Assembly (NCBI GenBank): GCA_036381995.1
Contig: DASVIS010000195.1
Coordinates: 1-54,057 of the forward strand
Origin: Vicinamibacterales bacterium
GTDB taxonomy: Bacteria > Acidobacteriota > Vicinamibacteria > Vicinamibacterales > Fen-181
Direction of reading: 5' to 3'
DNA: 54,057 nucleotides
The notes below the pieces were generated by a model. The model did not search any database, was not told the origin of the DNA, and was given only the letters and a program-made list of their open reading frames with translations. Within the stretch, counting starts at the first letter, position 1, and each line of letters begins with the position of its first letter. Below are positions 38,751 through 53,817 of the stretch, in pieces. A program made the position numbers and the translations under genes.

Positions 38751-38788
38751 GTCGGGCGCGTGGCAGCCGGGTGGCGCACGCGCCCGAC
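38751..38788 (+). terminator. stem-loop terminator candidate
   Basis: GTCGGGCGCGTG (38751-38762) pairs perfectly with CACGCGCCCGAC (38777-38788), with a 14-nt loop, 10 nt after the cupin stop. No T-tract. Confidence 0.5.
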
Positions 38789-39251: not shown

Positions 39252-39279
39252 GGCGCGCATCGGGACAGGAGCATAGGCC

Positions 39280-40569: not shown

Positions 40570-40856
40570 AGGCCGAACTCCTCGCCCGATTCCTTTGTCT
40601 TCGGACGCCTGAATTCGCTTGAGAACGAAATCAGGGCCCGGGTACTTGTGCCGGCGGATGCGGAATCCAAGATGCCAGCGATGACTTGCAGTTCGCGTGG
40701 GGTCACCGTCTCGGCAGGCACGGGCGACGGTCCCACACGAACCCCCTGCAAGGCATCTATGACGTCGCGAGTGATCCAGTAGCCGCCGTGCGCGACCGTC
40801 CTCACGCAGTCGAGCAGGACTGAGAGCGACCCAACGATCTCTCCCTGCCAGGCCTT
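40570..40856 (-). pseudogene. possible remnant of a NarL/LuxR-type response regulator (end of the receiver domain plus a degraded HTH), lacking start and N-terminus
   Basis: The minus-strand open frame reads ...AWQGEIVGSLSVLLDCVRTVAHGGYWITRDVIDAL...VTPRELQVIAGIL..., resembling the receiver-domain C-terminus and the LTPRELEVL start of a LuxR HTH. The downstream HTH is not intact in one frame. There is no receiver N-terminus because the adjacent lipoprotein gene ends at 40861. Confidence 0.4.
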
Positions 40857-40860
40857 CAGC

Positions 40861-41238
40861 TCAGCGCGGCGAACAGGTCGCCGACGTCAACGTCCAGCGC
40901 CGACCGGTGCGTTCGTGCACCAGCACGCACCGCGAGCCGCTCTTGACCAGCCGGAAGTGCTCCGGCCGGCCGGTCTCGCGTCCGGCAAGGTTCACGCCTT
41001 GTGCGTCGCGATGTGGAGCCCGCTGGACGATCAGCGTGTTGTCGGCCGTCAGCGCGGCGTCCGCGAGGGTCACCGGCGCTCCGCTCATCGCTCGGCTCAC
41101 GGCGCGCACCAGATCCGCGTGGCTCTGCTCCGTCGGGTGTGTGAGCACGGCGGGCACATCCCGCGGCGGCAACCGCGGGAGGCAACCGGCCAGGACCAGC
41201 GTTCCAACAACGCTCACAGCGCTCGTCACGCGCCTCAT
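40861..41238 (-). CDS. small lipoprotein, hypothetical
   Basis: MRRVTSAVSVVGTLVLAGC lipobox. Lies 5 nt downstream of the S41 peptidase stop (GTG 41247 would overlap it). Confidence 0.65.
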   Translation of the reverse strand: MRRVTSAVSVVGTLVLAGCLPRLPPRDVPAVLTHPTEQSHADLVRAVSRAMSGAPVTLADAALTADNTLIVQRAPHRDAQGVNLAGRETGRPEHFRLVKSGSRCVLVHERTGRRWTLTSATCSPR

Positions 41239-41243
41239 GTGAA

Positions 41244-42836
41244 TCACCGCCGCAGAATGCGGTTCTCGCGCCAGGGAGACTTGTAGAGCAGTCCTTCGCC
41301 GAGGATCGGTGCCTGGGCTGTTCTCACATTCGAGCGACTTGCAGACGCGGGGGATGCGGCAGACGCGGCGGGGCAGCTCCGGTCGACGAGGTAGCCCAGG
41401 GCCGCCGCCAATCTGCCTTCGTTGCGATCCCCAAGGGCGTGGCCGAAGTCGTCGTCGACCGCGCAGCCGGGCACCTGGACGCCGACCGTACCCGTGGCGT
41501 TGGCGGGAGAGAACCCGTCCGGGTAGTCCCCGAACGCCTGGTCATTGACGCCCTTGAACTCGATCGAGAAGTACGTCGTGGCGCAGTTGTCCTGAGGATA
41601 GAAGCCATAGGGCTTTCCACAGGTCGTCGATCCGATCTGGAACACCTGGACGCCCACGCCCCTCAGGCTGTTGAGGATTGATTCGCTGGCCGAGCAGGTA
41701 TTCGCACCCGTCAGGACCGTCACCCGCGTGAGGTTCAGTGACGGCAGGGCTTGACCGCTCGGTCCGGAAAATCCCTGGGAGGTCGCGTGGAACGGGATCG
41801 GCACGATCGCCTGTCCAGTGACCGGATCCACCGTCGGGTGCTTGTCACTGAACACCGTCTTCTCGAACGTCCGGCCGGTCGTGGCCCCACGCCCCGCAAC
41901 CATGTAGGCCACTTCGCTGGCGATGTCGAGGTAGCCGCCGCCGTTGTAACGGATGTCGAGCACCAGGTCGCTGACGTTCGCCGCCGCAAGCTGGCCAAAG
42001 GCGGTCACGAGTTCCTGCTCGGCGGTCGCGATGTGGTCGTTGAAGAGCATGTACCCCACCGTCCCCGTGGCGGTGGCGATGGTCTCGACGTTCTGTACCG
42101 GCGTCGACGTCACGTTGGCGGACACCATCGTGATGGTGCGAGGCGTAGTCGCTCCGGGATCGAGGATGGAGAACGTGTGAGAGGCGCCTGCCGAGGACGG
42201 GAATAGGCCCTCGTTCACCGTGGCGACGCTTCCGCTGTCGGTCGCGTTGACCAGGTCCACCCCGTCGACGGTCAGCACCTTCGCGCCGCGAGAAAGGTTC
42301 GCGGGCGGCGTCGTGGCGGGGGCATTCGGCTCCGTATAGGCGACCACGACGAGTCGGGGCGGCTTCGATGCGACAACGAGGAACTGCGCGCCATATCCCG
42401 CCTCCACGCCGGACTGCGACAACGCCACCCACTGGGCCGTCGAATACGTGAAGTGGAACCGGTCCTTCGGGTTGCCGGACGGCGTCGTGGCCGAGGTCTT
42501 CAGGATGTCGAAGTAATCAGTCGTCGAGTACGACGCCGGATTGAGGTCCGGCACTTCGCGGTACCAGAGATACAACTCGTTGGTCCACGAACGCAGGAAG
42601 CGATTCTCGGTGAGGGTCGAGCCCTGGACGTCGAGATAGCGTTTGCCGGTCGTGGGATCCGTGCCGGTGCGGGGGCTGGCGCACTGGTTTGCGAAAGCCG
42701 CTGACGGCTCGAACACGCCCGCCGTCCACGAACCGGACCCGCCCCTCGAAGCGCTCCCGCTGCTCCCGCTGCCACTTCCGCAACCGGCCAACGTGACCAG
42801 ACTCGCCACGACGATCCAGCGAAGCTCTGAAGGCAT
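41244..42836 (-). CDS. S41 family peptidase (lipoprotein)
   Basis: MPSELRWIVVASLVTLAGCGSGSG lipobox. LVLDIRYNGGGY and VTVLTGANTCSASESILNSLRG (S41 catalytic Ser context). Only the part after ATG 42836 of the 41244..45014 ORF is credible. Confidence 0.88.
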   Translation of the reverse strand: MPSELRWIVVASLVTLAGCGSGSGSSGSASRGGSGSWTAGVFEPSAAFANQCASPRTGTDPTTGKRYLDVQGSTLTENRFLRSWTNELYLWYREVPDLNPASYSTTDYFDILKTSATTPSGNPKDRFHFTYSTAQWVALSQSGVEAGYGAQFLVVASKPPRLVVVAYTEPNAPATTPPANLSRGAKVLTVDGVDLVNATDSGSVATVNEGLFPSSAGASHTFSILDPGATTPRTITMVSANVTSTPVQNVETIATATGTVGYMLFNDHIATAEQELVTAFGQLAAANVSDLVLDIRYNGGGYLDIASEVAYMVAGRGATTGRTFEKTVFSDKHPTVDPVTGQAIVPIPFHATSQGFSGPSGQALPSLNLTRVTVLTGANTCSASESILNSLRGVGVQVFQIGSTTCGKPYGFYPQDNCATTYFSIEFKGVNDQAFGDYPDGFSPANATGTVGVQVPGCAVDDDFGHALGDRNEGRLAAALGYLVDRSCPAASAASPASASRSNVRTAQAPILGEGLLYKSPWRENRILRR

Positions 42837-42910
42837 GAAATCAAGATAGCATGCCCGACCCGACGGCGTGATCGCCAACGATGCCCTGGGGCGCCTCAAT
42901 GCAGTCGGCG

Positions 42911-43663
42911 TCACCAGTCGTCTCGCTTCGTGTCGACCACCAACGTGATTCGCTGGCCATTTCGTAGGACGGCCACCTTCGCCTGCGGCATGGTCTGGAG
43001 TTCGCCGAACAGCCGCATGACGGTTGCCACGCCGTCCAGCGGCTGGCCATTGACTTCCAGGACGACATCGCCGTTCCGGAGTCCCAGTTGGTCGGCGACG
43101 CCGCCCGCCTTGATCTGGCCGATCTCGTACCCGTCGATGAGCCGCTGCCCGCTCGCCGTATCCCGGTACCTGGGGGTGGCGACCGCCGATTCCAGAAGGC
43201 TGGGCAGATCCTCGAGATAGCGGTCGACCGCGCCCTTCGCCAGATCGACGACCACGACATCCGGCGATGCGGTGAGGGCTGTGTTCGGGGGACGGGCCCC
43301 CGCGCCCGCCGGAGGCTGGGTGCCCGCCGGGTGGATCGCGCCGGAAAAGACCAGGAGTTCGTGACGATTCATCAGGAGGTTCATGATGAGGACGCCGTCC
43401 TCGCGAACTTCCTGGATCTCCGCGAGATCGCATGCCTGCTGTCCGGCAAAGAACATCCCCCGCCGCTCGGAGGCATCGGCGCAGCGGATGAGACACGCGG
43501 ACCTGGCTGGTGTCTTCTTGTCCACGATGAGCCCGGTCAGATGGAGCGGGAGAACCGAGAGCGGCACTGGCTTGGCAGGCTGCTGCGGAAGCCCGGCGGC
43601 CAGCAGGCCGACCGCCAATGCGGCGAGGCTGCCACAGCTTCCGGTCATGAAACCCATCACCAT
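42911..43663 (-). CDS. GspC-like protein (N-terminal anchor, HR-like domain, C-terminal PDZ)
   Basis: Hydrophobic N-terminus. LTGLIVDKKTPARSACLIRC...FFAGQQACDLAEIQEVREDGVLI resembles the GspC HR domain. The C-terminal PDZ reads GYEIGQIKAGGVADQLGLRNGDVVLEVNGQPLD. The start is ambiguous among ATG 43663, 43657 and 43648. Confidence 0.65.
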   Translation of the reverse strand: MVMGFMTGSCGSLAALAVGLLAAGLPQQPAKPVPLSVLPLHLTGLIVDKKTPARSACLIRCADASERRGMFFAGQQACDLAEIQEVREDGVLIMNLLMNRHELLVFSGAIHPAGTQPPAGAGARPPNTALTASPDVVVVDLAKGAVDRYLEDLPSLLESAVATPRYRDTASGQRLIDGYEIGQIKAGGVADQLGLRNGDVVLEVNGQPLDGVATVMRLFGELQTMPQAKVAVLRNGQRITLVVDTKRDDW

Positions 43664-44072
43664 CCCTCTTCCGCCATCTGCACGGCGCGCCCCCTCTGCT
43701 GGCAGGCAGGACCCAGTGCTGGCGCGACGATACTCGAGAATCCAGGTCCAGTCTGCGCGGTACCGCGCACCCCGTCAATAGGACGCCCAGGACTCGAACA
43801 GCATCCACTCCGGCAAGGGAACCGAGTCGATCCCGACGCCGCGAGAACCGATGTTGACCGGCTGGTTCGGGCAGCGAGATTCCCGCCGTCCGCCCGGCCA
43901 AGGCGTCCTTGCGGCACCTTGCGGCAGCGCTCCCGGGAGCGCTTGGCGCTGGCGGTACACTGCGCCATACTACGCTCCAAGAAGATTCGGCCTGTCCATG
44001 GACTCGTTGTAGGGCTGAGGGGGCGGGACCACAAGCCGCGCCACGAGCCTTCGTGGAGGCGAGGGAGGCCAG

Positions 44073-45479
44073 ATGAAGACCGCGATCCGGGCGAGCGTGC
44101 TGTTCGTGCTGCTGGCCATCGCGCCGGCGGTGATGGCGCAGGGCACGTTGAGCGCCGACCTGAGTGCCAGGGTCGACGCCGCGGTGCACGACGTGATGAC
44201 GAAGACCGGCGTGCCGAGCGCGTCGGTGGGCATCGTGCAGGGCGGCAGGATCGTCTTCACGAAAGCCTACGGCCTCGCACGGTTGGAGCCGCCGGTGGCG
44301 GCCACGACCGCCATGCACTACGCCATCGGGTCGATCAGCAAACAGTTCACAGCCGCGTGCATCCTGCTGCTCCAGGAAGACGGCAAGCTCACCATCGACG
44401 ATCCAATCGCGAAGTACTTCCCTGAGCTGACACGCGCGGGCGACGTCACGATCCGCCACATCCTCTCGCACACGTCCGGCTACCAGGACTACGCGCCGCA
44501 GGACTACACGATCCCGGCGTGGACCAAGCCGACAACGGCCGGCACGATCATCCACGAATGGGCGACCAAGCCGCTCGATTTCGAGCCCGGCACGCAGTAC
44601 CAGTACAGCAACACAAACTTCAACATCGCCGGGCTGATCGTGGAGAAGGTGAGCGGCGAGCCGTTCTGGTCGTTCCTCTCGCGCCGCGTGCTGAAGCCGC
44701 TCGGCATGGCGGACACGATCGACCTCGACGCCGATCACGCCAAGGTCGAGCCGATCGGCTACATGCGCAATGCGCTCGGGCCGCTGCGGCCCGCCATCAT
44801 CGAGGCGCCGGGTTGGTACTTCGCCGATGGGGAGATGGCGATGCCGGTGTCCGACCTGCTCACCTGGGATATCAGCGTGATGAGCCGGTCGATCCTGAAG
44901 CCATCGTCCTACGAGGTGATGGAAACCGACGTGAAGCTCCGAAACGGCGAGAGCGCGCACTACGGCCTGGGCGTGAGCGTGTCGACGCGCGACGGGCACC
45001 GCGTGGTGTCGCACGGCGGCGAAGTCGGCGGGTTCGTGGCCTCGAACACAGTGTTCCCCGACGACAAGATCGCCATCGTCGTCCTGACCAACCAGGAAGC
45101 GAGCCCCGCGGCCGGCGGCATCGCCCGCGCGATCTCAACCCTGTTGCTGGCGCCGGCGCCCGCGGCGGCCGAGACGGCGAAGGCGGAGACGCAGGCGAAG
45201 CTGGTGCTGGGCGATCTCCAGCAGGGGAAGATCGACCGCACCCTGTTCACCGCGAACTGCAACTTCTACTTCGACCAGGTGTCTCTCGACGACCACGCGA
45301 AAAGCCTCGGGCCGCTTGGCGCCGTCAGGACCGTGACGCAGACAGCCACATCGCTGCGCGGCGGCATGACGTTCCGCGCCTTCGACGTGGCGTTCGCCAA
45401 CGGCACCAGGGTGCGGCTCACGACCTACACGACGAAGGACGGGAAGCTCGAGCAGTTCGTGATCGCGCCGGTCGCGTAG
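44073..45479 (+). CDS. secreted serine hydrolase (beta-lactamase/class C-like, PBP4* family)
   Basis: Signal peptide MKTAIRASVLFVLLAIAPAVMAQG. SxxK (GSISKQFTAA), YxN (YQYSNTNF) and HGG (SHGGEVGGF) motifs. GAGGGAGG RBS. Confidence 0.88.
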   Translation: MKTAIRASVLFVLLAIAPAVMAQGTLSADLSARVDAAVHDVMTKTGVPSASVGIVQGGRIVFTKAYGLARLEPPVAATTAMHYAIGSISKQFTAACILLLQEDGKLTIDDPIAKYFPELTRAGDVTIRHILSHTSGYQDYAPQDYTIPAWTKPTTAGTIIHEWATKPLDFEPGTQYQYSNTNFNIAGLIVEKVSGEPFWSFLSRRVLKPLGMADTIDLDADHAKVEPIGYMRNALGPLRPAIIEAPGWYFADGEMAMPVSDLLTWDISVMSRSILKPSSYEVMETDVKLRNGESAHYGLGVSVSTRDGHRVVSHGGEVGGFVASNTVFPDDKIAIVVLTNQEASPAAGGIARAISTLLLAPAPAAAETAKAETQAKLVLGDLQQGKIDRTLFTANCNFYFDQVSLDDHAKSLGPLGAVRTVTQTATSLRGGMTFRAFDVAFANGTRVRLTTYTTKDGKLEQFVIAPVA

Positions 45480-45614
45480 CCACCCGCCTGAGCTGATTGC
45501 CGGGATGGTCGAGTGAAGGCGAAATCCGGATGCCCGGGCGAGGCCCGCATCGTCTTCATGAGCGATTCGATCGCCGGCTTGCTGTCCGCGCGCGGTTCGA
45601 GGTGAAATGAGCGA

Positions 45615-47615
45615 ATGACCCGGTATCAGATCACGTGGCGGGTGGTGCTGCTCTACGTCGCCCTCACGCTCCTGTTCACCTACCCTGTGTGGGTGCACCC
45701 CGCGACCCGGGTTATGTGGGCGAGCGACGACACCAACCTCTTCGCGTGGACGCTGTCGTGGGATACCTACGCGTTCACCCACCACCCGCTCTCGATCTTC
45801 GACGCGAACATCTACTACCCGGAACGCTACACCCTCGCGTACTCCGAGAACCTGATCGGCAGCGCCGTGATCGCCGCGCCGGTGCTGTGGCTGACGGCCA
45901 ACCCCATTCTCGCGATCAACGTGGTGGCGCTGCTTTCGTGCGTCCTGTGCGGCGTCGGGACGTATGTCCTCGCCCGACGGGTCGGCATCAGCCCGTCCGG
46001 CGCCATTCTCGCGGGGATGGTGTTCGCCTTCGCGCCGCCCCGCCTGCTCCGGTTCGGGCAGTTGCACCTGACGACCGTCCAGTGGCTCCCGTTCGGCCTC
46101 GCATGCCTTCACGCGTACCTGGACGAGGGCCGCAAGTCGGACCTGCGCCTCGCCATCGCCTTCCTGAGCCTGCAGGTAGTCACCAGCGGGCACGGCGCGG
46201 TGTTCCTCACGTTGTCGATGGCGCTCCTCCTCACCTACCGGTTTGCGCTCGGAGAGCCGCTGGCTTTGACGCGGCGGCTGCGTGATGTCGGCCTCGCCGG
46301 CCTGCTACTGCTGCTGCCCGCCGTCCTCGTCATGATTCCGTACCAGGTCGTGCAGCACGAGATGGGCCTGAAGCGCACGCTCGAAGACTGGGCCACGAGC
46401 GCCGAGAGCTTCCTCTCGTCGCCGGCGCACGCGCAGCAGTACCTGCTCTCGTGGCTCCCGGGCCTGCGGATTCGCGAGAACGCGCAAGCGCACCTGTTTC
46501 CGGGCTTCCTCCCGATCCTCCTCGCCCTGGCGGCCTGCGTCCCCGGCCGGGGGATGCGCGGCGGAAGAGCGAGAACCGCCCCGCGCTCCCGCGACTGGTG
46601 GCATCGCGCCGCTGTTGTGCTGGAGACCCTGGTGCTCGCCAGTGCGGCCTCGACCGTCTACGTCGCGCTCGCCGGGCCGGTCAAGCTGATACTCTGGCAC
46701 GTTCGGGTGCTCGCTATTCGAGACGCGGTTCGGCCGGGACTCGTCCTGGCGGCCTGCGTGATGGGGCGCCTCGCGCTCGCGTCGCGGGTCCCTCTGGCCC
46801 CGGCCGCCCGCTGGCGACGTGGGTGGCGAACCGCTGCGGACGCGGTCGGTCGAGCGGCGGCGGGCGCCTGTTCCTGGCCGGCGGCGCTGCGGGGCAACGT
46901 GACCCTGTTCTACGCCCTGTTGACGGTCCTCAGCCTGCTTCTGGCGGCGCCACCGCCTCTCGGCCTGTGGCCGAATGTCTACTGGTTGCCTGGTCTGAAT
47001 TTCATTCGCGTTCCGTCGCGCATCACGATCCTGGCACTGCTCGGCCTCGCCGTTCTCGCCGGGATCGGCTTCGACCGGTTGACCGCCTGGCTGTCACCCC
47101 GAAGGCGCGTCGCCTCCGCCGTGGGCGTCGCCGTCCTGCTCGCAGCGGAGCTGGCAGCGATGCCGTTGAGCCCATCCGAATACGCGGTGGAGATCCCGCC
47201 GATCGACCGCTGGCTGGCGACCCGCCCCGTGCCGTTTGCCATTGCCGAAGTTCCCCTTGCAGATCCGGACAACACCCCCGCCTTCGAACGCAGGCAGTCG
47301 ACGTTCATGCTCCATTCGATGGCCCACTGGCAGAAGACGATCCACGCGTTCAGCGGCTTCCGCCCGTTGCTTCACGACAAGCTGTACGAGCAGATGGGCC
47401 GTTTCCCGGACCTGGTCAGCCTTCGCAGCCTGGCTCGCCTCAGGATCACCTACATCGTCGTGCACACGGATCTCTACCGGCCAGGCGAATGGGACCGGGT
47501 CGACTCTCGCATCAGGGACTTCGGCGCCTGGCTGACGCTCGAACACGTCGAGGGGGCCGGCCGGGTCTACTCGCTTCACGACGCGGAGCTCGGAAAGCCG
47601 CGCGACGACAGATGA
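45615..47615 (+). CDS. polytopic membrane protein, putative GT-C-type glycosyltransferase-like. Paralogue of 49026..51056
   Basis: Many TM helices plus a C-terminal soluble domain. Shares with the paralogue the pattern ...DxxxFxWxL/xxxF..., YSENLIGSAVIAAPVLWL / SQPVTDVTGALLARVAG, and GVGTYVLARRVGISPSGAILAGMVFAFAPPRLLRFGQLHLTTVQWLPFGL versus AAAAYLLARHLALSPVGAAVAAIAYAFSPFHLAHAAYHAQVAQTQWLPLYL. The family name was not verified. Confidence 0.7.
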   Translation: MTRYQITWRVVLLYVALTLLFTYPVWVHPATRVMWASDDTNLFAWTLSWDTYAFTHHPLSIFDANIYYPERYTLAYSENLIGSAVIAAPVLWLTANPILAINVVALLSCVLCGVGTYVLARRVGISPSGAILAGMVFAFAPPRLLRFGQLHLTTVQWLPFGLACLHAYLDEGRKSDLRLAIAFLSLQVVTSGHGAVFLTLSMALLLTYRFALGEPLALTRRLRDVGLAGLLLLLPAVLVMIPYQVVQHEMGLKRTLEDWATSAESFLSSPAHAQQYLLSWLPGLRIRENAQAHLFPGFLPILLALAACVPGRGMRGGRARTAPRSRDWWHRAAVVLETLVLASAASTVYVALAGPVKLILWHVRVLAIRDAVRPGLVLAACVMGRLALASRVPLAPAARWRRGWRTAADAVGRAAAGACSWPAALRGNVTLFYALLTVLSLLLAAPPPLGLWPNVYWLPGLNFIRVPSRITILALLGLAVLAGIGFDRLTAWLSPRRRVASAVGVAVLLAAELAAMPLSPSEYAVEIPPIDRWLATRPVPFAIAEVPLADPDNTPAFERRQSTFMLHSMAHWQKTIHAFSGFRPLLHDKLYEQMGRFPDLVSLRSLARLRITYIVVHTDLYRPGEWDRVDSRIRDFGAWLTLEHVEGAGRVYSLHDAELGKPRDDR

Positions 47616-47786: not shown

Positions 47787-48206
47787 ATGTCGCAGCAACC
47801 ACGATGCGCCGGATGGACATGGCTGGCCACGGCGGCCATCGCCGGCACGTTCGTGCTGTCGACCGCTGCCTGTGCTCCGGCCGTATACAGTTCCCGCGGG
47901 CAGAGCGTCTACTCGGCGACGCCCTACGACCGCCTGCAGCAGCGCTCACAGCAGCTCGAGATGCTGGCCGCACGGGCGAGAGATAGGGCGAGGCTCGACC
48001 AAGGGCGCGGCGGGCGCCTCGAAGTCACGGACCGCATGGACGACTTCACGAAGCACGCGCACGACCTGCGCCAACTCGTGCGCGAACGTGTCGCCGCGCC
48101 CTTGGCCAAGGCGCAGCGGGGTTGGGCGAGTTACCAGCAGAATGAGCGTGCGGCGGTTTGGCCGCCGCACGCAGCTAGCGCGGCTCTCCTTCACGGTCCG
48201 GCTTGA
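47787..48206 (+). CDS. small putative lipoprotein, hypothetical
   Basis: GGAGGA RBS 7 nt before ATG 47787. MSQQPRCAGWTWLATAAIAGTFVLSTAAC lipobox-like. The helical remainder has no recognised family. The 3' end overlaps the convergent methyltransferase gene by 32 nt. Confidence 0.45.
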   Translation: MSQQPRCAGWTWLATAAIAGTFVLSTAACAPAVYSSRGQSVYSATPYDRLQQRSQQLEMLAARARDRARLDQGRGGRLEVTDRMDDFTKHAHDLRQLVRERVAAPLAKAQRGWASYQQNERAAVWPPHAASAALLHGPA

Positions 48207-49053
48207 TGGCGACCGTCGCCAGCAGGTACCCGTGCCGCCGCACGGCCGGCAGGTGGCGATCGAGGAAGGCAAAGGGCCATACGAGGGCCCCGGTGACCGC
48301 CGCAAGCGGCCGGCACCACGAATAGCAGGCCAGGTCGAGCATCCTGAGCCAGCCCGGGATGAAGAGGATCGCCGTCTCGGCGACCACGGTGAAGCCAGAC
48401 CGTTCCAGCATCTGACGCAGGGCACGACGCGAGAAGGACTTCTCGTACCCGTAGGCGTAGAGTCCCAGGGCCTGGAGCGCCGCCGCAACGAGCGGCCGGA
48501 GGAACGGGTCGTGGCGGTTCGGCACGCCGACGATGGCACGGCCGCCGGGCCTGAGAACCCGCGCCATCTCCTTGAGGGCGCGCTCGAAATCGCGAACGTG
48601 CTCGATGGTGCCCATGGAATAGATGGCGTCGAAGCTCGCGGTGCAGAACGGCAGCTCGCGGACGTCGGCGACCGCGCCATGGAGCGGCGCGCCGTCGAAG
48701 GCGGCCCTCGCCTGAATCACCGTCGGCTCGGAGACGTCGATGCCGTAGACGCGCGCGCCCTGCTGGCTGGCCCAGGCGAGGATACGCGTGTTCTTGGCCT
48801 CGTCCCAGAGATCGGTCTTGAGGATCCTCAGCCCCTCGAGCGGAGGGAAGTGCTCGACGAACAGGCGGCGTTCGTTCTCGGCGTAGTACCGGGTCGAGAC
48901 CGCCCCGCCGAGGTCGGGGAAGTGCTCGCCCACGTCCGCCCAGAAGCGGCGGTAGGCGGACCCACGCCGCCCGTCGCCCGATACGGTCGAGGCTCTAGCG
49001 CCATCGTGCAGGTCCGACGGATATGTCACGGATGCTCCCCCTGCACCGTCCAT
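48175..49053 (-). CDS. class I SAM-dependent methyltransferase (Methyltransf_11-like)
   Basis: ILKTDLWDE...ARVYGIDVSEPTV...FDAIYSMGTIEHVRDFERALKEMARVLRPGGRAIV. ATG 49053 overlaps the upstream gene by 28 nt. An in-frame GTG at 49029 would give a GTGA overlap with its stop. Confidence 0.85.
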   Translation of the reverse strand: MDGAGGASVTYPSDLHDGARASTVSGDGRRGSAYRRFWADVGEHFPDLGGAVSTRYYAENERRLFVEHFPPLEGLRILKTDLWDEAKNTRILAWASQQGARVYGIDVSEPTVIQARAAFDGAPLHGAVADVRELPFCTASFDAIYSMGTIEHVRDFERALKEMARVLRPGGRAIVGVPNRHDPFLRPLVAAALQALGLYAYGYEKSFSRRALRQMLERSGFTVVAETAILFIPGWLRMLDLACYSWCRPLAAVTGALVWPFAFLDRHLPAVRRHGYLLATVAIKPDREGEPR

Positions 49054-51056
49054 CTCCAGGCGCCGAACGCAACCGACAGCGGACGTCGGTCACCGTTCTT
49101 CAGCAGATCGGCCGCCACGGTCGGAGCATCGATCGGATGGAACACGAGCTCATGATCGCCCGGCGTCAGCGCGAGCGGACCAATCCGGTGGAAGCGACGT
49201 TCTACCTCGATCACCAGCCGCTGAACCTCCTGCCGGTCGAGCCGCAGCTCCAGGCGACGGGGCCCGCCAAACGCCGACATCTCGATGTCAACGGAGGCCA
49301 CCATCGGCCGGCCGCTTCCGTTCACGATCTTCCAGGACGCATCGGGTCCCATCCATCGCCAGGTCATGCCCTCGAGGTGCTCGCGCGGAGAGAACGCCGT
49401 CATCTTCGCGGTGTAGACGGAGGGCGGTGGCGCCGTGACCGCGAACACTTCGCCATCGCCGAAGTGCGTCTGCGCTCGCAGGCCGTCGGGTGTGGGCTGA
49501 CGGGCGAACCATCGTCCATCCCATGTGTCTCGCCGCACGAGCAGATGCGTGTAACCCTCGGCCGCAAGCTTCCGGGAGAGGTTCGGCTCCATGCAGTCAT
49601 CGAACGGGCCGCCCAGCAGCGAGACCTGGTGGTCCGTCAGCCACTGCACCGACGCCGACTCCGGCGTGAGCGGGACGCAGTCGAGCACGCGCAGACGATC
49701 GGGCTGCCGCACGATCCATCGGTGCGCGGTCGTGGGCAGCACGTCGCGCCAGAGCGCCGGCGGCCACACCGCGTACTCGCCGACGGTGAGCACGAGAAGC
49801 GCGATGCACACGATCTGCCCGCGCCACGTTCCTGTGTGGCGAAGACGATCCACGCCGATGCCTGAGAGCAGCGCCGCCATGAGCTGGACCATCACCCCGA
49901 ACCGGGCGTACGCTCGGAACATCGGAACCAGGCCGTACAGCAGGCCGGACGGTCGGACGATCGTGAACGGGCCGATCCGGCGCTCGGGCGAGAGCGAGCA
50001 CGCGAGCGCGGCGACCGCGACGGCGACAATGACCGGGACCTGCGCGAGCGACGCCGGTCGTCGATCGCGGGCCAGCCATCGAAAAGCCGCGATGAGGCCC
50101 AGCGCGACGATCCCCCAGCCGATGCTCACCTGCTGTTCGAGCATTCCCTCGCGGACACCGGAGGCGGCCCAGATGCGATGGGCGAGGTCGCCGAGGAGCG
50201 GATGCTCAACGGGCGGGACGAAGTAGCTCCACCATTTCGCGCTGTGTGGGAACAGAGCCGCGCGCGGGAACGCGAAAGCGGCCCGGTTGACGACGACCGC
50301 GTGAGCCGCCCACCACGCGTACGCCATGCCGGCACCAGCCATGAATAGGAGGCTGCCGACCGTGATAGCTAATCGGCGTGTCGACCCTGCATCACTCCGG
50401 GGCCGGACCAACCAATAGGCGGCAATGGCGACCGGCGTGATGACGGCCGCGATCAGGCCCCCGTAGAAGTTCGAGAGCGCCACGGCAACGGTCGAGACGC
50501 CAAGAAAACCCACCGCTACCGGCGTCGAGGCGTCGAGACAGCGCCAGAGTGCGAGGAGGTACAGCGGAAGCCACTGGGTCTGCGCGACCTGGGCGTGGTA
50601 CGCGGCGTGGGCGAGGTGGAACGGCGAGAACGCGTAGGCAATCGCCGCGACGGCGGCGCCGACCGGCGACAGCGCGAGGTGACGCGCGAGCAAGTACGCC
50701 GCTGCCGCGGAGAGCGGGAAGCTGAGGAGGACTAGCCAGTTGTACGCAGCCACCGGGCCCGCCACGCGCGCGAGCAACGCCCCGGTGACATCGGTGACCG
50801 GCTGCGAGTAGATCTCGAGGGCGATCGGGCGGCCGAACTGCTCCATCACCGTGAAGGGGTCGTGGTGGCGCCCGACGATCTCCATGCCAAAGAGCCGCTC
50901 GGACGGCGCCCGAAGGACGGGGCCGGCGATCACCAGCGTGACGATCAGCGCGACCGCCGAGACGGCTGCCGCCTCGCGCCATTGCCCCGCCCGTCGCGGC
51001 GGCTGCGTCGGGCCCGGCCCGGCGTCCGCTGGTGACGGTTCCGGAGCCTCAACCAC
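49026..51056 (-). CDS. polytopic membrane protein, putative GT-C-type glycosyltransferase-like. Paralogue of 45615..47615
   Basis: See the paralogue entry. The track start (51113) is a TTG. I prefer in-frame GTG 51056, which overlaps the upstream stop by 8 nt. The start remains uncertain. Confidence 0.7.
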   Translation of the reverse strand: MVEAPEPSPADAGPGPTQPPRRAGQWREAAAVSAVALIVTLVIAGPVLRAPSERLFGMEIVGRHHDPFTVMEQFGRPIALEIYSQPVTDVTGALLARVAGPVAAYNWLVLLSFPLSAAAAYLLARHLALSPVGAAVAAIAYAFSPFHLAHAAYHAQVAQTQWLPLYLLALWRCLDASTPVAVGFLGVSTVAVALSNFYGGLIAAVITPVAIAAYWLVRPRSDAGSTRRLAITVGSLLFMAGAGMAYAWWAAHAVVVNRAAFAFPRAALFPHSAKWWSYFVPPVEHPLLGDLAHRIWAASGVREGMLEQQVSIGWGIVALGLIAAFRWLARDRRPASLAQVPVIVAVAVAALACSLSPERRIGPFTIVRPSGLLYGLVPMFRAYARFGVMVQLMAALLSGIGVDRLRHTGTWRGQIVCIALLVLTVGEYAVWPPALWRDVLPTTAHRWIVRQPDRLRVLDCVPLTPESASVQWLTDHQVSLLGGPFDDCMEPNLSRKLAAEGYTHLLVRRDTWDGRWFARQPTPDGLRAQTHFGDGEVFAVTAPPPSVYTAKMTAFSPREHLEGMTWRWMGPDASWKIVNGSGRPMVASVDIEMSAFGGPRRLELRLDRQEVQRLVIEVERRFHRIGPLALTPGDHELVFHPIDAPTVAADLLKNGDRRPLSVAFGAWRWTVQGEHP

Positions 51057-52515
51057 GAGCGCCGTCTCCCACCGGACCCGCGACCGGGGTCGGCCTGCCG
51101 GACAGCCGGTCAACGTTCACGACGGCCGCGATGACGAGGATCGGACCGACCACCGCCCACGCGCGGACGTCGCGCACGTGGGGCGTGAGGCCGGAGTGGC
51201 TGGCAACGGCGTGGAGCGCCAGCAAGGCTGCGATCTGGGTCAACGCGAGGAGCGCGAGGCCGGCCAGAAAGCGCCTCCAGCCGACGACGACGAAGGCCGC
51301 CACCCAGAGCGCCACATAGAGGCCAACCTGGAAGCCGGGGAAGAGCGTGATGGCGCCCTGTGGGTCATTTACCGGCGTGCCCGCGGCGACGCGCGACAGC
51401 GCGCCGCCCCCCAGCAACTCCGCTGCCCGCCCGACCAGGGCCGTGTAGGGCGCGCCGAGCAACTGGACAAGCGCGAAGCCCAGCACCACGGCGAGCAGCG
51501 TCCGGCGCACGGCCGTCTCGCCGGCGCCGTGACGCCAGAGGGCGGCGACCAGCACAACCACCGCGGCGAGCAGGAGTTGGTAGAAGGCGTGAACCAGGAA
51601 GACCGGCGACGCCACGAGGGCAGCGGGGAGGGCCACGACCAGGAGCCGGGCGATGCCGAGGCCGACAAAGAGCGGTGCTGTCGCGAGAAGGCCCAGCGCG
51701 GCCCTGCGCCACGTGCTCGAATAGGCGAGCACGGCCGCCAGGTAGACCGGGATGAGCGGCGTGGAGATGCACTCCTGGGTGACCATGAACGCGCCCCGGG
51801 GCGTCAAGAGCACGTTGGCCGCGGCGCTGGCCTCGACCCCAAGGAGGCGGAGCGTCGCCCCTGCCGCGCGGGCGATGAATGCGGCCACCACGAGGACGCG
51901 GGCGCTCTCGAGGTAGAGCGGCGAGGCGGCGGTGAAGAGGAGAAGGAAGCCCGCCGTGAGGAGGACGAAGCGGCGCGTGAGGCGCGCCGGTCGGCGTTCA
52001 CCGGGAAGAGCAGCGGGCGGCGAGGCCGGCAGAACGGGCGCCGCCCCGACCGCGCGCCGGCGGTCGGCGACGCGCATCCAGGCGAAGACGTAGCCGGCGA
52101 TGACGAGCGTGAGCACCGCCGGCCACAGGTAGACGTGGAGCGCCTCGAACCACGTCGGCGACCCGGCCACGCGGCCGAGGGTGCCGATGCGCAGCGTATT
52201 GAGGCCAAGGATGAGCCCCAGGCCACCGAAAACCCCCGCGAGGCGCATCCGCCACCTCGCCGGGTACGCGAGGATGACGGCCAGGCAAAGCGACAGCGCG
52301 TCAGCGCCGCTGCACGCCAGTGTGGCCTCGACGGGGAGCGCGGGCGTGCCGCAGAGCTCCACCGCGAGCCGCCCTTGCAGTTGGGTGAGCGGAAGGACGC
52401 CGTGGGTCTCTACCCAGTCCAGACGCAGGAGGCCGAACAGGCCGAGGCTCCAGGCTGCGGCTCGTAGGGTGAAGTTACGAGCGCGGGTCCAGCTGCGGGA
52501 GGTGTCCGTCGGCAC
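51049..52515 (-). CDS. exosortase/archaeosortase-family protein with two tandem catalytic-like modules
   Basis: Module 1: VEATLACSGADALSLCLAVILAYPARWRMRLAG...LNTLRIGTLG...ALHVYLWP, supplying the Cys, Arg and His of the exosortase triad. Module 2: MVTQECISTPLIPVYLAAVLAYSSTWRRAALG...LGIARLLVVALP...FLVHAFYQ. Polytopic throughout. GTG start at 52515 overlaps the upstream gene by 41 nt. Confidence 0.7.
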   Translation of the reverse strand: MPTDTSRSWTRARNFTLRAAAWSLGLFGLLRLDWVETHGVLPLTQLQGRLAVELCGTPALPVEATLACSGADALSLCLAVILAYPARWRMRLAGVFGGLGLILGLNTLRIGTLGRVAGSPTWFEALHVYLWPAVLTLVIAGYVFAWMRVADRRRAVGAAPVLPASPPAALPGERRPARLTRRFVLLTAGFLLLFTAASPLYLESARVLVVAAFIARAAGATLRLLGVEASAAANVLLTPRGAFMVTQECISTPLIPVYLAAVLAYSSTWRRAALGLLATAPLFVGLGIARLLVVALPAALVASPVFLVHAFYQLLLAAVVVLVAALWRHGAGETAVRRTLLAVVLGFALVQLLGAPYTALVGRAAELLGGGALSRVAAGTPVNDPQGAITLFPGFQVGLYVALWVAAFVVVGWRRFLAGLALLALTQIAALLALHAVASHSGLTPHVRDVRAWAVVGPILVIAAVVNVDRLSGRPTPVAGPVGDGARG

Positions 52516-52855
52516 GGGGGATCTCCTGGACCGAGACGTGACGCGCGCCGAAGGACCGGCTCAGCTCGTCGATGGCTTCCAGGCTCTTGAGCCTGGTTGA
52601 GCAGGAGAAGATGTCGATGTTCACGGTGCCGGTTTCCGGCCACGTGTGGAGGACGGCGTGCGACTCGCGCAGGATGAGGACGCAGGTGAGGCCGGCTCCG
52701 GGATAGGCGTGGGACACCGCCTGCACAATCGTTGCCCCTGCGCGCCCCAGGGCCGCGACGAAGGTCGCGGTGATGTCGTTCGGCTCGAGCGTGGCGAGAG
52801 CCTCGCACTCGCCGAGGTCGACGGAGTACAGCACAGGCAACGGATAGGTGAGCAT
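52475..52855 (-). CDS. S-adenosylmethionine decarboxylase proenzyme-like (SpeH/class 1 AdoMetDC fold, pyruvoyl-dependent)
   Basis: 126 aa from ATG 52855. The signature VLILRESHAVLHTWPETGTVNIDIFSCS matches the AdoMetDC self-processing (E-S) site and the HTWPE...D.F.C motif. The track extension to 52972 is unsupported. Confidence 0.82.
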   Translation of the reverse strand: MLTYPLPVLYSVDLGECEALATLEPNDITATFVAALGRAGATIVQAVSHAYPGAGLTCVLILRESHAVLHTWPETGTVNIDIFSCSTRLKSLEAIDELSRSFGARHVSVQEIPRADGHLPQLDPRS

Positions 52856-52893
52856 TCCGACGGGAACTATACCGAACGGCACAAAGAGCGGGG

Positions 52894-52909
52894 TGTTCAA
52901 AATTGAACA
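52894..52909. promoter_or_regulatory. candidate operator palindrome in the divergent promoter region
   Basis: TGTTCAA-AA-TTGAACA (7-bp perfect arms) in a locally AT-rich patch between the speH-like operon (start 52855) and the DUF3494 gene (start 53023). Confidence 0.3.
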
Positions 52910-53022
52910 GCCGGTTTTGCGAGCCCGGCGTAACGTCGCAGCGACCCGTGTGTGCGCGCCCGGCCCGCGCATCGGAGCGTCGGGTTCTTCCGGGCTCCGT
53001 CACTCCGGAAAGGGGATGCAGA

Positions 53023-53817
53023 ATGAAGCCCAAGCACTTGCGCCTCGTGACGAGCGTGGCATTCGCCGCGCTTCTCTGGGGCCCCTCCCTCGCGCTGGCC
53101 CAAACCGCACCACCGTCGCTGGGAACGGCACAAAGCTTCGCGGTCCTGGGTGGGCAGACGGTGACCAACACTGGCCCGAGTGTCATCACCGGAAATCTGG
53201 GTGTCAGCCCAGGCACCGCGGTCCCCGGCTTTCCTCCCGGGATCGTGAACGGGACGATACACGCCGCGGATGCGGTCGCCCTTCAGGCGCAGACCGATGT
53301 CACCACGGCGTACAATGCCCTCGCGGCCCAGGCGTGCATGGCCGACATGACCGGCCAGGACCTCGGCGGACGGACCCTCACGCCCGGAGTCTATTGCTTT
53401 ACGTCGTCCGCTCAGTTGACGGGAACGCTCACTCTCAACGCCCAGGGCAATGCCGCGGCGGTGTTCATTTTCAAGATAGCGAGCACACTGACGACCGCGA
53501 GCAACTCCCTTGTGTCCGTGACCAACGGCGGGTCAAATTGCAGCGTGTTCTGGCAGGTCGGCAGTTCCGCGACGCTGGGTACGGGCACGACGTTCGCCGG
53601 TAATATCCTGGCGCTCACGAGCATCACCCTGAACACCGGCGCAACCGTGTCGGGAAGGGACCTTGCGCGAAATGGCGCCGTGACGCTCGATAGCAACACC
53701 GTCAACGCCTCCGCGTGCGGGGCCGCCGTCCCCGCCCTCCCCGAGTGGGCGATGATTACGCTGACCGCTCTCCTGGCCCTGGCCGCCTTCACCGCCATGC
53801 GCAGGCGAGCGGTGTAA
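53023..53817 (+). CDS. secreted DUF3494 (ice-binding-like) protein with an IPTL-CTERM-like C-terminal sorting tag
   Basis: Signal peptide MKPKHLRLVTSVAFAALLWGPSLALAQ. DUF3494 pattern LGTAQSFAVLGGQTVTNTGPSVITGNLGVSPG...LGGRTLTPGVYCF...AAAVFIFKIASTLTT...NCSVFWQVGSSATLGTGTTFAGNILALTSITLNTGATVSGR. The C-terminus is VPALPEWAMITLTALLALAAFTAMRRRAV. Confidence 0.85.
   Translation: MKPKHLRLVTSVAFAALLWGPSLALAQTAPPSLGTAQSFAVLGGQTVTNTGPSVITGNLGVSPGTAVPGFPPGIVNGTIHAADAVALQAQTDVTTAYNALAAQACMADMTGQDLGGRTLTPGVYCFTSSAQLTGTLTLNAQGNAAAVFIFKIASTLTTASNSLVSVTNGGSNCSVFWQVGSSATLGTGTTFAGNILALTSITLNTGATVSGRDLARNGAVTLDSNTVNASACGAAVPALPEWAMITLTALLALAAFTAMRRRAV

What the first reader, a model, noticed from the sequence alone, without database searches (positions are those of the whole stretch)
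51049..52515. Exosortase-like protein with an internal duplication, both halves keeping a Cys/Arg/His set
Seen in sequence: residues about 60-165 and about 215-330 align with each other (ACSGADALSLCLAVILAYPARWRMRLAGVFGG...LNTLRIG...LHVYLWP versus QECISTPLIPVYLAAVLAYSSTWRRAALGLLAT...LGIARLL...LVHAFYQ). A third hydrophobic region of about 150 aa follows. Established knowledge: characterised exosortase and archaeosortase models have a single catalytic region with conserved Cys, Arg and His. Inference: this is a pseudo-dimeric or dual-specificity sortase, or one active and one regulatory module.
Basis: partly seen in the sequence, partly recalled or inferred. Interest (0 to 1): 0.65.

Follow-up and report, generated by a model that had tools for sequence, protein, structure and literature searches.

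The report
Tandem two-module exosortase of Vicinamibacteria
A membrane protein-sorting enzyme (exosortase) of soil and permafrost Acidobacteria is built from two diverged copies of the catalytic unit that both keep their active-site residues. It sits in a conserved operon with its likely surface-protein cargo and with SAM-using enzymes, which gives a testable lead on what exosortases attach their cargo to.

Summary
ORF 51049-52515(-) encodes a 488-aa, roughly 12-TM protein. Residues 1-172 and 173-333 each match mini-exosortase models and match each other (hhalign E=7e-9, score 57 against a shuffled null of 13±3).

Cys/Arg/His is kept in both halves: C68/R109/H127 and C249/R290/H309. These are invariant in 61 diverse homologues and present in at least 209 of 213 long homologues. 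Both halves are equally conserved. Charge distribution places both triads on the non-cytoplasmic face.

A third, 4-TM module (334-488) matches no known family. There are about 200 clusters at 50% identity, almost all Vicinamibacterales. The gene lies in a conserved cassette:
- a divergent ice-binding-like protein with an IPTL-CTERM-type tail (VPxLPEW, TM helix, RRR);
- AdoMet-decarboxylase → tandem exosortase → DUF6311 → methyltransferase.

Some homologues are in-frame fusions of exosortase, methyltransferase and, in two cases, AdoMetDC.

My best reading is a covalently fused pseudo-heterodimeric exosortase with two live sites that processes IPTL-type cargo. I found no evidence for dual specificity or for a purely regulatory second half, but neither is excluded. 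No NCBIfam model claims the family and no paper found describes it, so I rate it a new variant of a known kind.

The parts
51049..52515 (-). Tandem exosortase gene ('Xrt2'), 488 aa, about 12 TM helices, GTG start. It overlaps the upstream AdoMetDC gene by 41 nt and the downstream DUF6311 gene by 8 nt.
52000..52515 (-). Module 1 (aa 1-172), an XrtH-like mini-exosortase unit with canonical motifs SCSGAD, LNTxRIG and LHxYVWP. Catalytic-type codons: C68 52312-52314, N106 52198-52200, R109 52189-52191, H127 52135-52137. It ends in a variable Arg-rich cytoplasmic linker (aa about 158-175).
   Evidence: (XrtH 59.1 bits; TIGR04178 45 bits against cut-off 23)
51517..51999 (-). Module 2 (aa 173-333), a second and more diverged mini-exosortase unit with motifs VTxECxxTPLIPVY, LGxARLL and HAFYQ. 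Codons: C249 51769-51771, R290 51646-51648, H309 51589-51591. A predicted beta-hairpin (aa 230-244) precedes the Cys.
   Evidence: (ArtB 41.2 bits over model positions 4-149 of 156)
51049..51516 (-). Module 3 (aa 334-488), a family-specific 4-TM C-terminal module that matches no known family. It has a conserved outer-loop D384-x-Q386-G387 (codons 51364-51366 and 51358-51360) and R451 (51163-51165). Its C-terminus is cytoplasmic and is the point where methyltransferase and AdoMetDC are fused in some homologues.
53023..53817 (+). Divergently transcribed candidate substrate: a secreted ice-binding-like (DUF3494/PF11999) protein of 264 aa, counted from the ATG that has a GGGGA ribosome-binding site. 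It has a Sec-type signal peptide (MKPKHLRLVTSVAFAALLWGPSLALA).
   Evidence: (PF11999 225 bits)
53728..53814 (+). C-terminal tripartite sorting signal of the substrate: VPALPEW motif, TM helix (AMITLTALLALAAFTAM) and RRR cluster. It is of the IPTL-CTERM type.
   Evidence: TIGR04174 32.6 bits, cut-off 20.5; PF18203 23.1 bits, cut-off 20.8
52856..53022 (.). 167-bp divergent intergenic region between the AdoMetDC-exosortase operon and the substrate gene. It presumably holds both promoters, which was not tested.
   Evidence: sequence only
52475..52855 (-). AdoMet-decarboxylase-family pyruvoyl enzyme, 126 aa. The self-cleavage motif E-S-H, HTWPE and the F-S-C Cys are conserved. It is the first gene of the operon.
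   Evidence: (TIGR03330 76.1 bits, cut-off 75.65)
49026..51056 (-). DUF6311-type polytopic membrane protein with a C-terminal beta-rich domain, about 676 aa. The start is taken from the 99%-identical homologue P0271. It shows weak similarity to YfhO and PTPS_related.
48175..49053 (-). Class I methyltransferase-fold protein, 292 aa, the last gene of the operon. The Gly-rich motif I is replaced by the invariant acidic loop KTDLWDEAKNT.

Best explanation
The gene encodes a tandem, two-module exosortase.

Shown:
- Two anciently diverged mini-exosortase units are fused head-to-tail through a cytoplasmic linker, followed by a family-specific 4-TM module. Each unit has about four TM helices plus an outer-face helix.
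- Both units have the same orientation. Both keep an invariant Cys/Arg/His set at the outer (periplasmic) ends of their helices.
- The protein defines a large Vicinamibacterales (Acidobacteriota) family.
- It is embedded in a conserved cassette. This comprises a divergently transcribed secreted ice-binding-like protein with an IPTL-CTERM-type tail, plus the overlapping operon AdoMetDC → exosortase → DUF6311 membrane protein → methyltransferase.

Inferred mechanism:
1. The cargo is exported by Sec and held in the inner membrane by its C-terminal helix.
2. An exosortase Cys attacks at the VPxLP(E/Q)W motif, releases the TM/RRR anchor and forms a thioester.
3. A nucleophile resolves the thioester (sortase-like transpeptidation).

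The duplication is best read as a covalently fixed pseudo-heterodimer in which both sites remain functional. Module 1 keeps the canonical site. Module 2 is a specialised site for a second cleavage or transfer step, or for the acceptor.

The cytoplasmic AdoMetDC and methyltransferase-fold enzymes are fused to the exosortase C-terminus in some relatives. I infer that they make a dedicated small molecule or lipid head group, plausibly amine-bearing, that the system uses as acceptor or modifier.
For: Duplication: each half hits exosortase HMMs. hhalign of half 1 against half 2 gives E=7.3e-9, and score 57.4 against a shuffled null of 12.8±2.8.

Both triads are conserved:
- C68, N106, R109, H127, C249, R290 and H309 are invariant in 61 homologues of 33-62% identity.
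- In 213 homologues of at least 430 aa the six triad residues are present in 209-212. The exceptions are gapped or partial sequences.
- They are also kept in the fusion proteins and in a 40%-identical paralogue.
- Conservation of the two modules is equal: 0.46 and 0.44 overall, and 0.52 and 0.51 for the cores.

Topology: short Lys/Arg-rich loops alternate with the loops that carry the triads. N- and C-termini are cytoplasmic. This agrees with the C-terminal fusions to SAM enzymes, which must be cytoplasmic. The AF2 model has pLDDT 89.8 and pTM 0.82.

Substrate: the neighbour has PF11999 and an IPTL-CTERM tail above both curated cut-offs. VPTL-type tails lie next to the exosortase in 42 or more related loci.

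Cassette, among 77 GTDB loci with enough flank:
- ice-binding-like protein 60/68;
- AdoMetDC 69/73;
- DUF6311 58/67;
- methyltransferase 42/49.
The genes overlap one another.

Fusions:
- exosortase + methyltransferase (P0130, P0135, P0153, P0189);
- exosortase + methyltransferase + AdoMet_dc (P0202, P0260);
- a single 866-aa ORF in L063.

AdoMetDC catalytic motifs are invariant and align with Thermotoga AdoMetDC.

Precedent: archaeosortase ArtA depends on, and in Methanosarcina is syntenic with, a decarboxylase (PssD). That enzyme makes the ethanolamine amine proposed to resolve the Cys-173 thioester (PMC7157517).
Against: - No biochemistry exists for any member of this family. Catalysis by either Cys is inferred from conservation only.
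- Module 2 lacks the Asn of N-x-x-R (it has Gly/Ala287) and the CSG motif. Alone it scores 18.4 bits on the signature model, below the cut-off of 23. Its site may not be a protease or transpeptidase site.
- I could not read the AF2 coordinates. The distance and mutual orientation of the two Cys are unknown.
- The function of AdoMetDC, the methyltransferase and DUF6311 in sorting rests only on gene linkage and fusion.
- The methyltransferase lacks a canonical SAM-binding loop.
- DUF6311 could not be modelled (pLDDT 58).
Confidence: 0.7

Rival explanations
1. One live site, one pseudo-site. Module 1 is the only catalytic exosortase. Module 2 is a degenerate copy retained as a structural partner, a docking site for the substrate's TM tail, or a regulator. 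Its Cys/Arg/His are kept for binding or folding, not for chemistry.
For: - Module 2 has lost the canonical CSG and N-x-x-R motifs (ECxxTP and G/A-x-A-R instead).
- Alone it scores 18.4 bits on TIGR04178, below the cut-off of 23, while module 1 scores 45.
- Module 1 is the half that resembles XrtH, the enzyme class tied to IPTL-CTERM signals.
Against: - Pseudo-enzymes usually lose catalytic residues.
- Here C249, R290 and H309 are invariant across about 60 clusters down to 33% identity, and present in 209-212 of 213 sequences.
- Module 2 is as conserved as module 1.
- New invariant residues surround the Cys (T246, E248, P253) and the His (F311, Q313). This suggests a remodelled but selected site.
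Confidence: 0.2
2. Dual specificity. Each module processes a different class of substrate or sorting signal, for example two signal variants, or C-terminal against mid-protein ('midcut') sites.
For: - The two sites have clearly different surrounding motifs.
- Adjacent tails come in two sub-variants..P(E/Q)WA..LLALAG..RRR and ..PQxF..LALGL..GY..LRRR.
- The window's cargo has a weak, sub-threshold hit to the midcut-by-XrtH model (20.6 bits against cut-off 45).
Against: - Only one signal class was found near the gene in the 54-kb window and in related loci.
- The two tail sub-variants swap between closely related exosortases: the nearest neighbour has the same type in only 27 of 37 cases.
- No exosortase column in either catalytic module tracks tail type.
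- No whole-genome census of tails could be made.
Confidence: 0.12
3. The repeat is not a real feature. The similarity would be chance resemblance of hydrophobic helices, or the ORF an assembly or gene-calling fusion of two adjacent exosortase genes.
For: Single-sequence BLASTP is only marginal (E=0.001).
Against: - The profile comparison gives E=7e-9 and lies about 16 SD above a composition-preserving null.
- The halves hit exosortase HMMs independently.
- More than 1,200 full-length homologues of 445-500 aa come from independent assemblies.
- GC3 of the frame is 0.88.
Confidence: 0.01

Closest known systems
Exosortase H (XrtH, TIGR04177) with IPTL-CTERM sorting domain (TIGR04174 / PF18203)
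   Same: - Module 1's best match is XrtH (59-68 bits).
- The neighbouring cargo carries an IPTL-CTERM-type tail above both curated cut-offs.
- The Cys/Arg/His signature lies at the outer helix ends.
   Different: - It scores below the XrtH cut-off of 86 bits.
- XrtH is modelled as a single unit of about 158 aa. This protein has two units plus a 155-aa extra module.
- The motif is VPTLP(E/Q)W.
- The dedicated AdoMetDC/DUF6311/methyltransferase operon is part of this family. Whether canonical XrtH systems have it was not tested.
Archaeosortase B (ArtB, TIGR04144) and other mini-exosortases (XrtX, XrtY, XrtM, ArtE)
   Same: Module 2 aligns over almost the whole ArtB model (positions 4-149 of 156) and has the same size and helix pattern. 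Both modules hit XrtX, XrtY and XrtM weakly.
   Different: All scores are far below the family cut-offs (41 against 150 bits for ArtB). The organism is bacterial, not archaeal. No VPXXXP-CTERM substrate was seen.
Archaeosortase A (ArtA) with PssA/PssD in Haloferax and Methanosarcina
   Same: - It belongs to the same superfamily and has a Cys active site (Cys-173).
- It is genetically or functionally coupled to a decarboxylase. That enzyme unmasks a primary amine (archaetidylethanolamine) proposed to resolve the thioester (PMC7157517).
- Here a decarboxylase (AdoMetDC family) is translationally coupled, and sometimes fused, to the sortase.
   Different: - The decarboxylase family differs (AdoMetDC against phosphatidylserine decarboxylase), and so does the sorting signal (PGF-CTERM).
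- ArtA has one catalytic unit.
- The acceptor here is unknown.
Exosortase A / EpsH (PF09721, TIGR02602) PEP-CTERM system
   Same: It belongs to the same superfamily. Cargo carries a tripartite C-terminal signal. It is associated with envelope glycan or ligase-type membrane proteins. One relative has a Wzy_C protein in place of DUF6311.
   Different: Similarity is only faint (Pfam E=0.3). EpsH has 8 TM helices and a single catalytic region. There is no PEP motif here.
Sortase A (LPXTG) of Gram-positive bacteria
   Same: It is a functional analogue: a Cys/Arg/His transpeptidase that cleaves a C-terminal motif + TM + basic-tail signal and resolves a thioester with an amine. This rests on established knowledge and PMC7157517.
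   Different: It is not homologous. Sortase A is a soluble beta-barrel domain, not a polytopic membrane protein, and has no tandem catalytic units.

Membership tests
Exosortase/archaeosortase superfamily (signature TIGR04178) | Score at or above the curated cut-off of the signature model | tested here: met
   Whole protein 43.4 bits and module 1 alone 45 bits, against a cut-off of 23. Module 2 alone scores 18.4 bits, below the cut-off, but it matches ArtB, XrtX and XrtH models end to end.
Exosortase/archaeosortase superfamily (signature TIGR04178) | Conserved Cys, Arg and His at the extracytoplasmic ends of consecutive TM helices | tested here: met
   The feature is present twice, as C68/R109/H127 and C249/R290/H309, and is invariant in the family. 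The outer-face location is inferred from the positive-inside rule and from the C-terminal cytoplasmic fusions. No experimental topology exists.
Exosortase/archaeosortase superfamily (signature TIGR04178) | Co-occurrence with proteins that carry a cognate tripartite C-terminal sorting signal | tested here: met
   The adjacent gene has an IPTL-CTERM tail (TIGR04174 32.6 bits against 20.5; PF18203 23.1 against 20.8). The same kind of tail lies next to homologues in 42 or more loci.
Exosortase/archaeosortase superfamily (signature TIGR04178) | Cys-dependent cleavage or transpeptidation of the signal | not testable with these tools
   This needs mutants and mass spectrometry of the mature cargo.
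Exosortase H (XrtH, TIGR04177) | Score at or above the model cut-off (86 bits) | tested here: not met
   67.7 bits for the whole protein and 59.1 bits for module 1, covering only model positions 66-157 of 158.
Exosortase H (XrtH, TIGR04177) | Single-unit protein of about 158 aa | tested here: not met
   The protein is 488 aa with two units plus a third module. Homologues are 445-500 aa.
Exosortase H (XrtH, TIGR04177) | Paired with IPTL-CTERM substrates | tested here: met
Archaeosortase B (TIGR04144) | Score at or above the cut-off (150 bits) and a VPXXXP-CTERM partner | tested here: not met
   65.5 bits for the whole protein and 41.2 bits for module 2. No VPXXXP-CTERM protein was seen nearby.
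S-adenosylmethionine decarboxylase, Bacillus/Thermotoga type (TIGR03330, PF02675), for the neighbour at 52475-52855 | Score at or above the cut-off; Glu-Ser self-cleavage site; HTWPE His; catalytic Cys | tested here: met
   76.1 bits against a cut-off of 75.65 (barely above). PF02675 scores 86.8 against 25. ESH, HTWPE and FSC are invariant in 52 sequences and align with 1TLU/1VR7. The substrate (SAM or another amino acid) was not tested.

The most novel reading that the evidence does not exclude
The two catalytic centres may act in sequence on one cargo. One would cleave the IPTL-type signal and hold the thioester. The other would perform transfer or ligation. The co-encoded, sometimes fused, AdoMetDC and atypical methyltransferase-fold enzyme would form an aminopropyl-transfer pair analogous to SpeD/SpeE. 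The acidic loop KTDLWDE would replace the Gly-rich SAM loop. This pair would build a primary-amine acceptor (polyamine-like, or an aminopropylated lipid or glycan), so that the cargo's new C-terminus is amidated to it. That would be the first defined acceptor chemistry for a bacterial exosortase, and the first two-site sortase.
Probability: 0.12. Interest if true: 0.85.

Novelty: new variant of a known kind. Interest (0 to 1): 0.6.

Why it matters
Exosortases are very widespread in Gram-negative bacteria. No structure turned up in the PDB fold search. To my knowledge no acceptor molecule has been defined and there is almost no biochemistry.

This family offers three handles:
- A natural covalent 'dimer' in which two differently remodelled Cys/Arg/His sites are both under strong selection. 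This allows clean single-site genetics, and it suggests that mini-exosortases may work as dimers.
- A one-substrate, one-enzyme cassette: the cargo gene is next door in about 60 of 68 loci.
- Gene overlap and Rosetta-stone fusions that tie the sortase to a decarboxylase and a methyltransferase-fold enzyme. This parallels the ArtA-PssD link in archaea and points to a specific, testable source of the nucleophile or modifier.

The family is abundant in soil, peat and permafrost Vicinamibacterales, and its cargo is an ice-binding-like surface protein.

Tried and rejected
1. PDB fold search with the confident AF2 model found no match (best E=1.2, TM-score below 0.2). No solved exosortase-like fold was found in the library.
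2. DUF6311 structure: the AF2 model was poor (pLDDT 58, only a shallow 24-sequence alignment of close homologues), so I ran no fold search. A PDB sequence search found nothing. Pfam gave only weak YfhO and PTPS_related hits (E about 0.03-0.04).
3. Module 3 matched no Pfam or NCBIfam family, even at E≤10, for four diverse members. It is unrelated to modules 1 and 2.
4. Mutual information between cargo tail sub-type (W or F) and exosortase columns, meant to find the recognising module, gave only high-entropy columns and no signal in either catalytic module.
5. MI-APC coevolution for inter-module contacts was dominated by gap-rich tails (Neff about 137) and was not informative.
6. A second tail candidate in the window (927-4673) is the last helix of a lactate permease, not a sorting signal.
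7. tblastn of each module against plasmids, to find annotated stand-alone relatives, returned no match.
8. Literature searches (exosortase + IPTL-CTERM, XrtH, tandem or duplication, XrtX/Y/M, ice-binding) found no paper describing a tandem exosortase. Haft et al. 2012 is not held in the library.
I repeated it with 12 sequences.
10. Context of a cassette-less paralogue (L075) was uninformative.
11. I could not decide between internal duplication and fusion of two paralogous mini-exosortases. Each module is about as far from the other as from the XrtH, ArtB and XrtX models.

Full report
**1. The observation**

The ORF at 51049..52515 (minus strand, GTG start) encodes 488 aa. Its third-position GC content is 0.88, typical of real genes in this 67% GC window.

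NCBIfam places it in the exosortase/archaeosortase superfamily. The signature model TIGR04178 scores 43.4 bits against a cut-off of 23. Several exosortase models report two matched stretches.

Scanned separately:
- Residues 1-172 hit XrtH (59.1 bits) and the signature model (45 bits).
- Residues 173-333 hit ArtB over model positions 4-149 of 156 (41.2 bits). They also hit XrtX, XrtH and ArtE.
- Residues 334-488 hit nothing.

I then compared family profiles cut from a 61-sequence alignment. The two halves align over 112 columns (8-121 with 176-305), with probability 95.8%, E=7.3e-9 and score 57.4. One hundred column-shuffled versions of the second profile score 12.8±2.8 (maximum 20.8), and the reversed profile scores 13.0. 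The repeat is therefore real and is not a by-product of hydrophobic composition.

There is no DNA-level repeat, so the duplication is old. The third region is unrelated to either half (E=0.16 and 0.42).

**2. Conservation of both catalytic-type sets**

The protein has more than 1,200 homologues in the 90%-clustered collection. The top 120 are all 431-504 aa apart from one 358-aa fragment. In the 50%-clustered library, 198 clusters match at E≤1e-30.

In 61 full-length representatives (33-62% identical to the query) the invariant columns are:
- module 1: C68, P85, N106, R109, H127, P132, W146;
- module 2: C249, R290, P297, H309, F311, Q313;
- module 3: Q386 and R451.

In 213 homologues of at least 430 aa, the counts are C68 211, R109 212, H127 210, C249 212, R290 209 and H309 209. 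The exceptions are sequences with gaps or partial matches.

Mean identity to the query is the same for the two modules:

| Region | Mean identity to query |
|---|---|
| Module 1 (1-157) | 0.46 |
| Module 2 (176-330) | 0.44 |
| Module 1 core (60-150) | 0.52 |
| Module 2 core (240-330) | 0.51 |
| Module 3 (334-472) | 0.33 |
| Linker (158-175) | 0.15 |

That does not occur.

The sites are not identical:
- Module 1 keeps the classical SCSGAD, LNTxRIG and LHxYVWP motifs.
- Module 2 has VTxECxxTPLIPVY, LGxARLL and HAFYQ. It has lost the Asn three residues before the Arg, where position 287 is Gly or Ala.

**3. Architecture and topology**

AlphaFold2 with the 61-sequence alignment gives a confident single-chain model: pLDDT 89.8, pTM 0.82. 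It has 16 helices of 12 or more residues, a short helix at 71-83 after C68, and a beta-hairpin at 230-244 before C249.

Lys and Arg counts across the family show short, strongly basic loops at these positions:
- the N-terminus;
- 86-91;
- the 148-182 linker (4.5 K+R on average);
- 268-273;
- 328-338;
- 409-416.

The loops that carry C68, R109/H127, C249, R290/H309 and D384-x-Q386-G are poor in K+R per residue. By the positive-inside rule both modules are N-in/C-in. They are therefore parallel repeats, not inverted ones, and both triads face the non-cytoplasmic side.

The cytoplasmic C-terminus is independently supported by homologues that carry SAM-dependent enzymes fused at that end. No solved structure resembles the model.

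**4. Context: a conserved sorting cassette**

The gene immediately upstream on the other strand (53023-53817) encodes a secreted ice-binding-like (PF11999, 225 bits) protein. Its last 29 residues are VPALPEW-AMITLTALLALAAFTAM-RRRAV. These match the IPTL-CTERM sorting domain above both curated cut-offs: TIGR04174 32.6 bits against 20.5, and PF18203 23.1 against 20.8.

The exosortase is the second gene of an operon whose genes overlap one another:

| Gene | Coordinates (minus strand) | Size | Overlap |
|---|---|---|---|
| AdoMet-decarboxylase family | 52475-52855 | 126 aa | 41 nt with the exosortase start |
| Tandem exosortase | 51049-52515 | 488 aa | see adjacent rows |
| DUF6311-type membrane protein | 49026-51056 | about 676 aa | 8 nt with the exosortase end |
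| Class I methyltransferase-fold protein | 48175-49053 | 292 aa | 28 nt with the DUF6311 end |

A scan of one genome per GTDB species found 77 loci. Almost all are Vicinamibacterales or Acidobacteriota MAGs. The few other labels sit at similar identities and may be binning errors.

Among loci with enough flank, the neighbours recur as follows:
- ice-binding-like gene 60/68;
- AdoMetDC 69/73;
- DUF6311 58/67;
- methyltransferase 42/49.

More distant members (38-44% identity, L063-L065) carry the same genes in a different order. One relative has a Wzy_C (O-antigen-ligase-like) protein in place of DUF6311.

Tails of the form VP(T/A)L(P/S)(E/Q)W or VPTLPQxF, followed by a TM helix and an RRR cluster, lie next to the exosortase in 42 or more loci.

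**5. Fusions**

About 17 of the 150 best 50%-clusters are 700-850 aa long. Pfam shows two kinds:
- tandem exosortase + Methyltransf_11 (P0130, P0135, P0153, P0189);
- tandem exosortase + Methyltransf_11 + AdoMet_dc (P0202, P0260).

In the GTDB locus L063 the fusion is a single 866-aa ORF. Both triads are invariant in the fusion proteins.

These fusions, the gene overlaps and the conserved linkage tie the decarboxylase and the methyltransferase-fold enzyme functionally to the sortase.

The decarboxylase keeps its catalytic motifs: the Glu-Ser-His self-cleavage motif, HTWPE and the FSC cysteine. They are invariant in 52 sequences and align with Thermotoga AdoMetDC.

The methyltransferase-fold protein lacks the Gly-rich SAM loop. 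An invariant acidic loop, KTDLWDEAKNT, takes its place. All Pfam and PDB alignments start after that loop. Its nearest solved relatives are small-molecule and lipid methyltransferases, including a phosphatidylethanolamine N-methyltransferase.

**6. How it most likely works**

Shown:
- There are two parallel exosortase units, each with a conserved outer-face Cys/Arg/His.
- A cognate IPTL-type cargo gene lies next door.
- The gene is operonic with, and in some relatives fused to, two cytoplasmic SAM-family enzymes.

Inferred:
- The cargo is exported by Sec and anchored by its tail.
- A Cys thiolate cleaves at the VPxLP(E/Q)W motif and forms a thioester.
- A nucleophile then resolves the thioester. 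This is the mechanism proposed for ArtA, where Cys-173 is the active site. A syntenic decarboxylase (PssD) supplies archaetidylethanolamine as the proposed amine nucleophile (PMC7157517).

I read the tandem architecture as a covalently fixed pseudo-heterodimer in which both sites are still used. Equal conservation and invariant triads argue against a dead second copy.

Whether the two sites act independently, in relay, or on different partners cannot be decided from sequence.

The AdoMetDC and methyltransferase-fold pair plausibly builds an amine-bearing acceptor or modifier. That the pair is an aminopropyl-transfer couple is my speculation, based on the acidic loop and on established knowledge of SpeD/SpeE.

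**7. Rivals**

- A non-catalytic second module remains possible (0.2) because its motifs are remodelled and it falls below the signature cut-off when scanned alone.
- Dual specificity (0.12) has no positive evidence. One signal class was seen. The two tail sub-variants swap among close relatives and do not track any column of the catalytic modules.
- Chance similarity or an assembly artefact is excluded.

**8. Comparison with what is known, and novelty**

The protein is a member of the exosortase/archaeosortase superfamily. It is not a member of XrtH (67.7 bits against 86), ArtB (65.5 against 150) or any other curated Xrt/Art family in NCBIfam release 20. Source annotations are only 'exosortase/archaeosortase family protein' or 'hypothetical'.

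None of the papers I could search describes a tandem exosortase or this cassette. The founding 2012 survey is not in the library, so prior mention there cannot be excluded.

I rate it a new variant of a known kind.

**9. Environment and expression**

Near-identical DNA occurs in permafrost, peat and soil metagenomes.

Two soil metatranscriptome assemblies contain short contigs, 90-97% identical, that lie within the exosortase and DUF6311 genes. This is weak evidence that relatives are transcribed. DNA carry-over cannot be excluded.

Noticed in passing
window 48175-49053 (-): The operon's class I methyltransferase-fold protein lacks the Gly-rich SAM-binding motif I. In its place is an acidic loop, KTDLWDEAKNT, invariant in 45 orthologues. 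All Pfam and PDB alignments begin after it. It may bind something other than SAM, for example dcSAM from the co-encoded decarboxylase.
   Followed up: partly
P0130/P0135/P0153/P0189 (700-741 aa), P0202/P0260 (831-850 aa); L063:7950-10550: Natural in-frame fusions of tandem exosortase + methyltransferase, and of tandem exosortase + methyltransferase + AdoMet decarboxylase. About 17 of the 150 best 50%-clusters have the extra length.
   Followed up: yes
L002:9488-10870: In one relative (62% identity) the DUF6311 gene is replaced by a Wzy_C (O-antigen-ligase-like) membrane protein, and the AdoMetDC gene is absent. This hints that the downstream membrane protein is an exchangeable glycan or ligase-type partner.
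   Followed up: no
L004-L080, genes just upstream of the exosortase: Cargo tails fall into two sub-variants: VPTL(P/S)(E/Q)WA..LLALAG..RRR and VPTLPQxF(V/L)..LALGL..GY..LRRR. They switch between closely related exosortases. Cargo size ranges from about 270 to 760 aa, and some loci have two cargo genes in a row (L015, L023).
   Followed up: partly
L066 and L075 (same MAG, MFD05684.bin.2.83): One genome carries two paralogues (82% and 40% identical to the query). The distant one keeps both triads but has none of the cassette genes within 8 kb.
   Followed up: partly
window 49026-51056 (-): The DUF6311-type protein has a helical membrane part and a confidently predicted beta-rich C-terminal domain (residues about 430-650, pLDDT 80-90). 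The membrane part did not fold confidently. It shows weak YfhO and PTPS_related (GT-C-like) similarity only.
   Followed up: partly
window 927-4673 (-): This 1,248-aa ORF carries the lactate permease (LctP) domain only in residues about 666-1199. The long N-terminal part is probably not translated, because the ORF is extended upstream in a high-GC frame and overlaps the ORF at 2888-6361.
   Followed up: no
window 28063-47615: Flanking genes look ordinary and unrelated to the cassette. They include a GH43 glycosidase (28063-29715), a DACNV-domain protein (30875-32071), RecQ helicase (32662-34962), PRPP synthetase (37236-38294), an S41 peptidase (41244-45014 ORF) and a beta-lactamase-family protein (44073-45479). 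Several ORFs have no Pfam match (35754-37718, 39280-40569, 45615-47615).
   Followed up: no
window 48175-53817: Near-identical DNA is found mainly in permafrost and peat metagenomes, and less completely in soil and sediment. This is of note because the cargo is an ice-binding-like protein.
   Followed up: no
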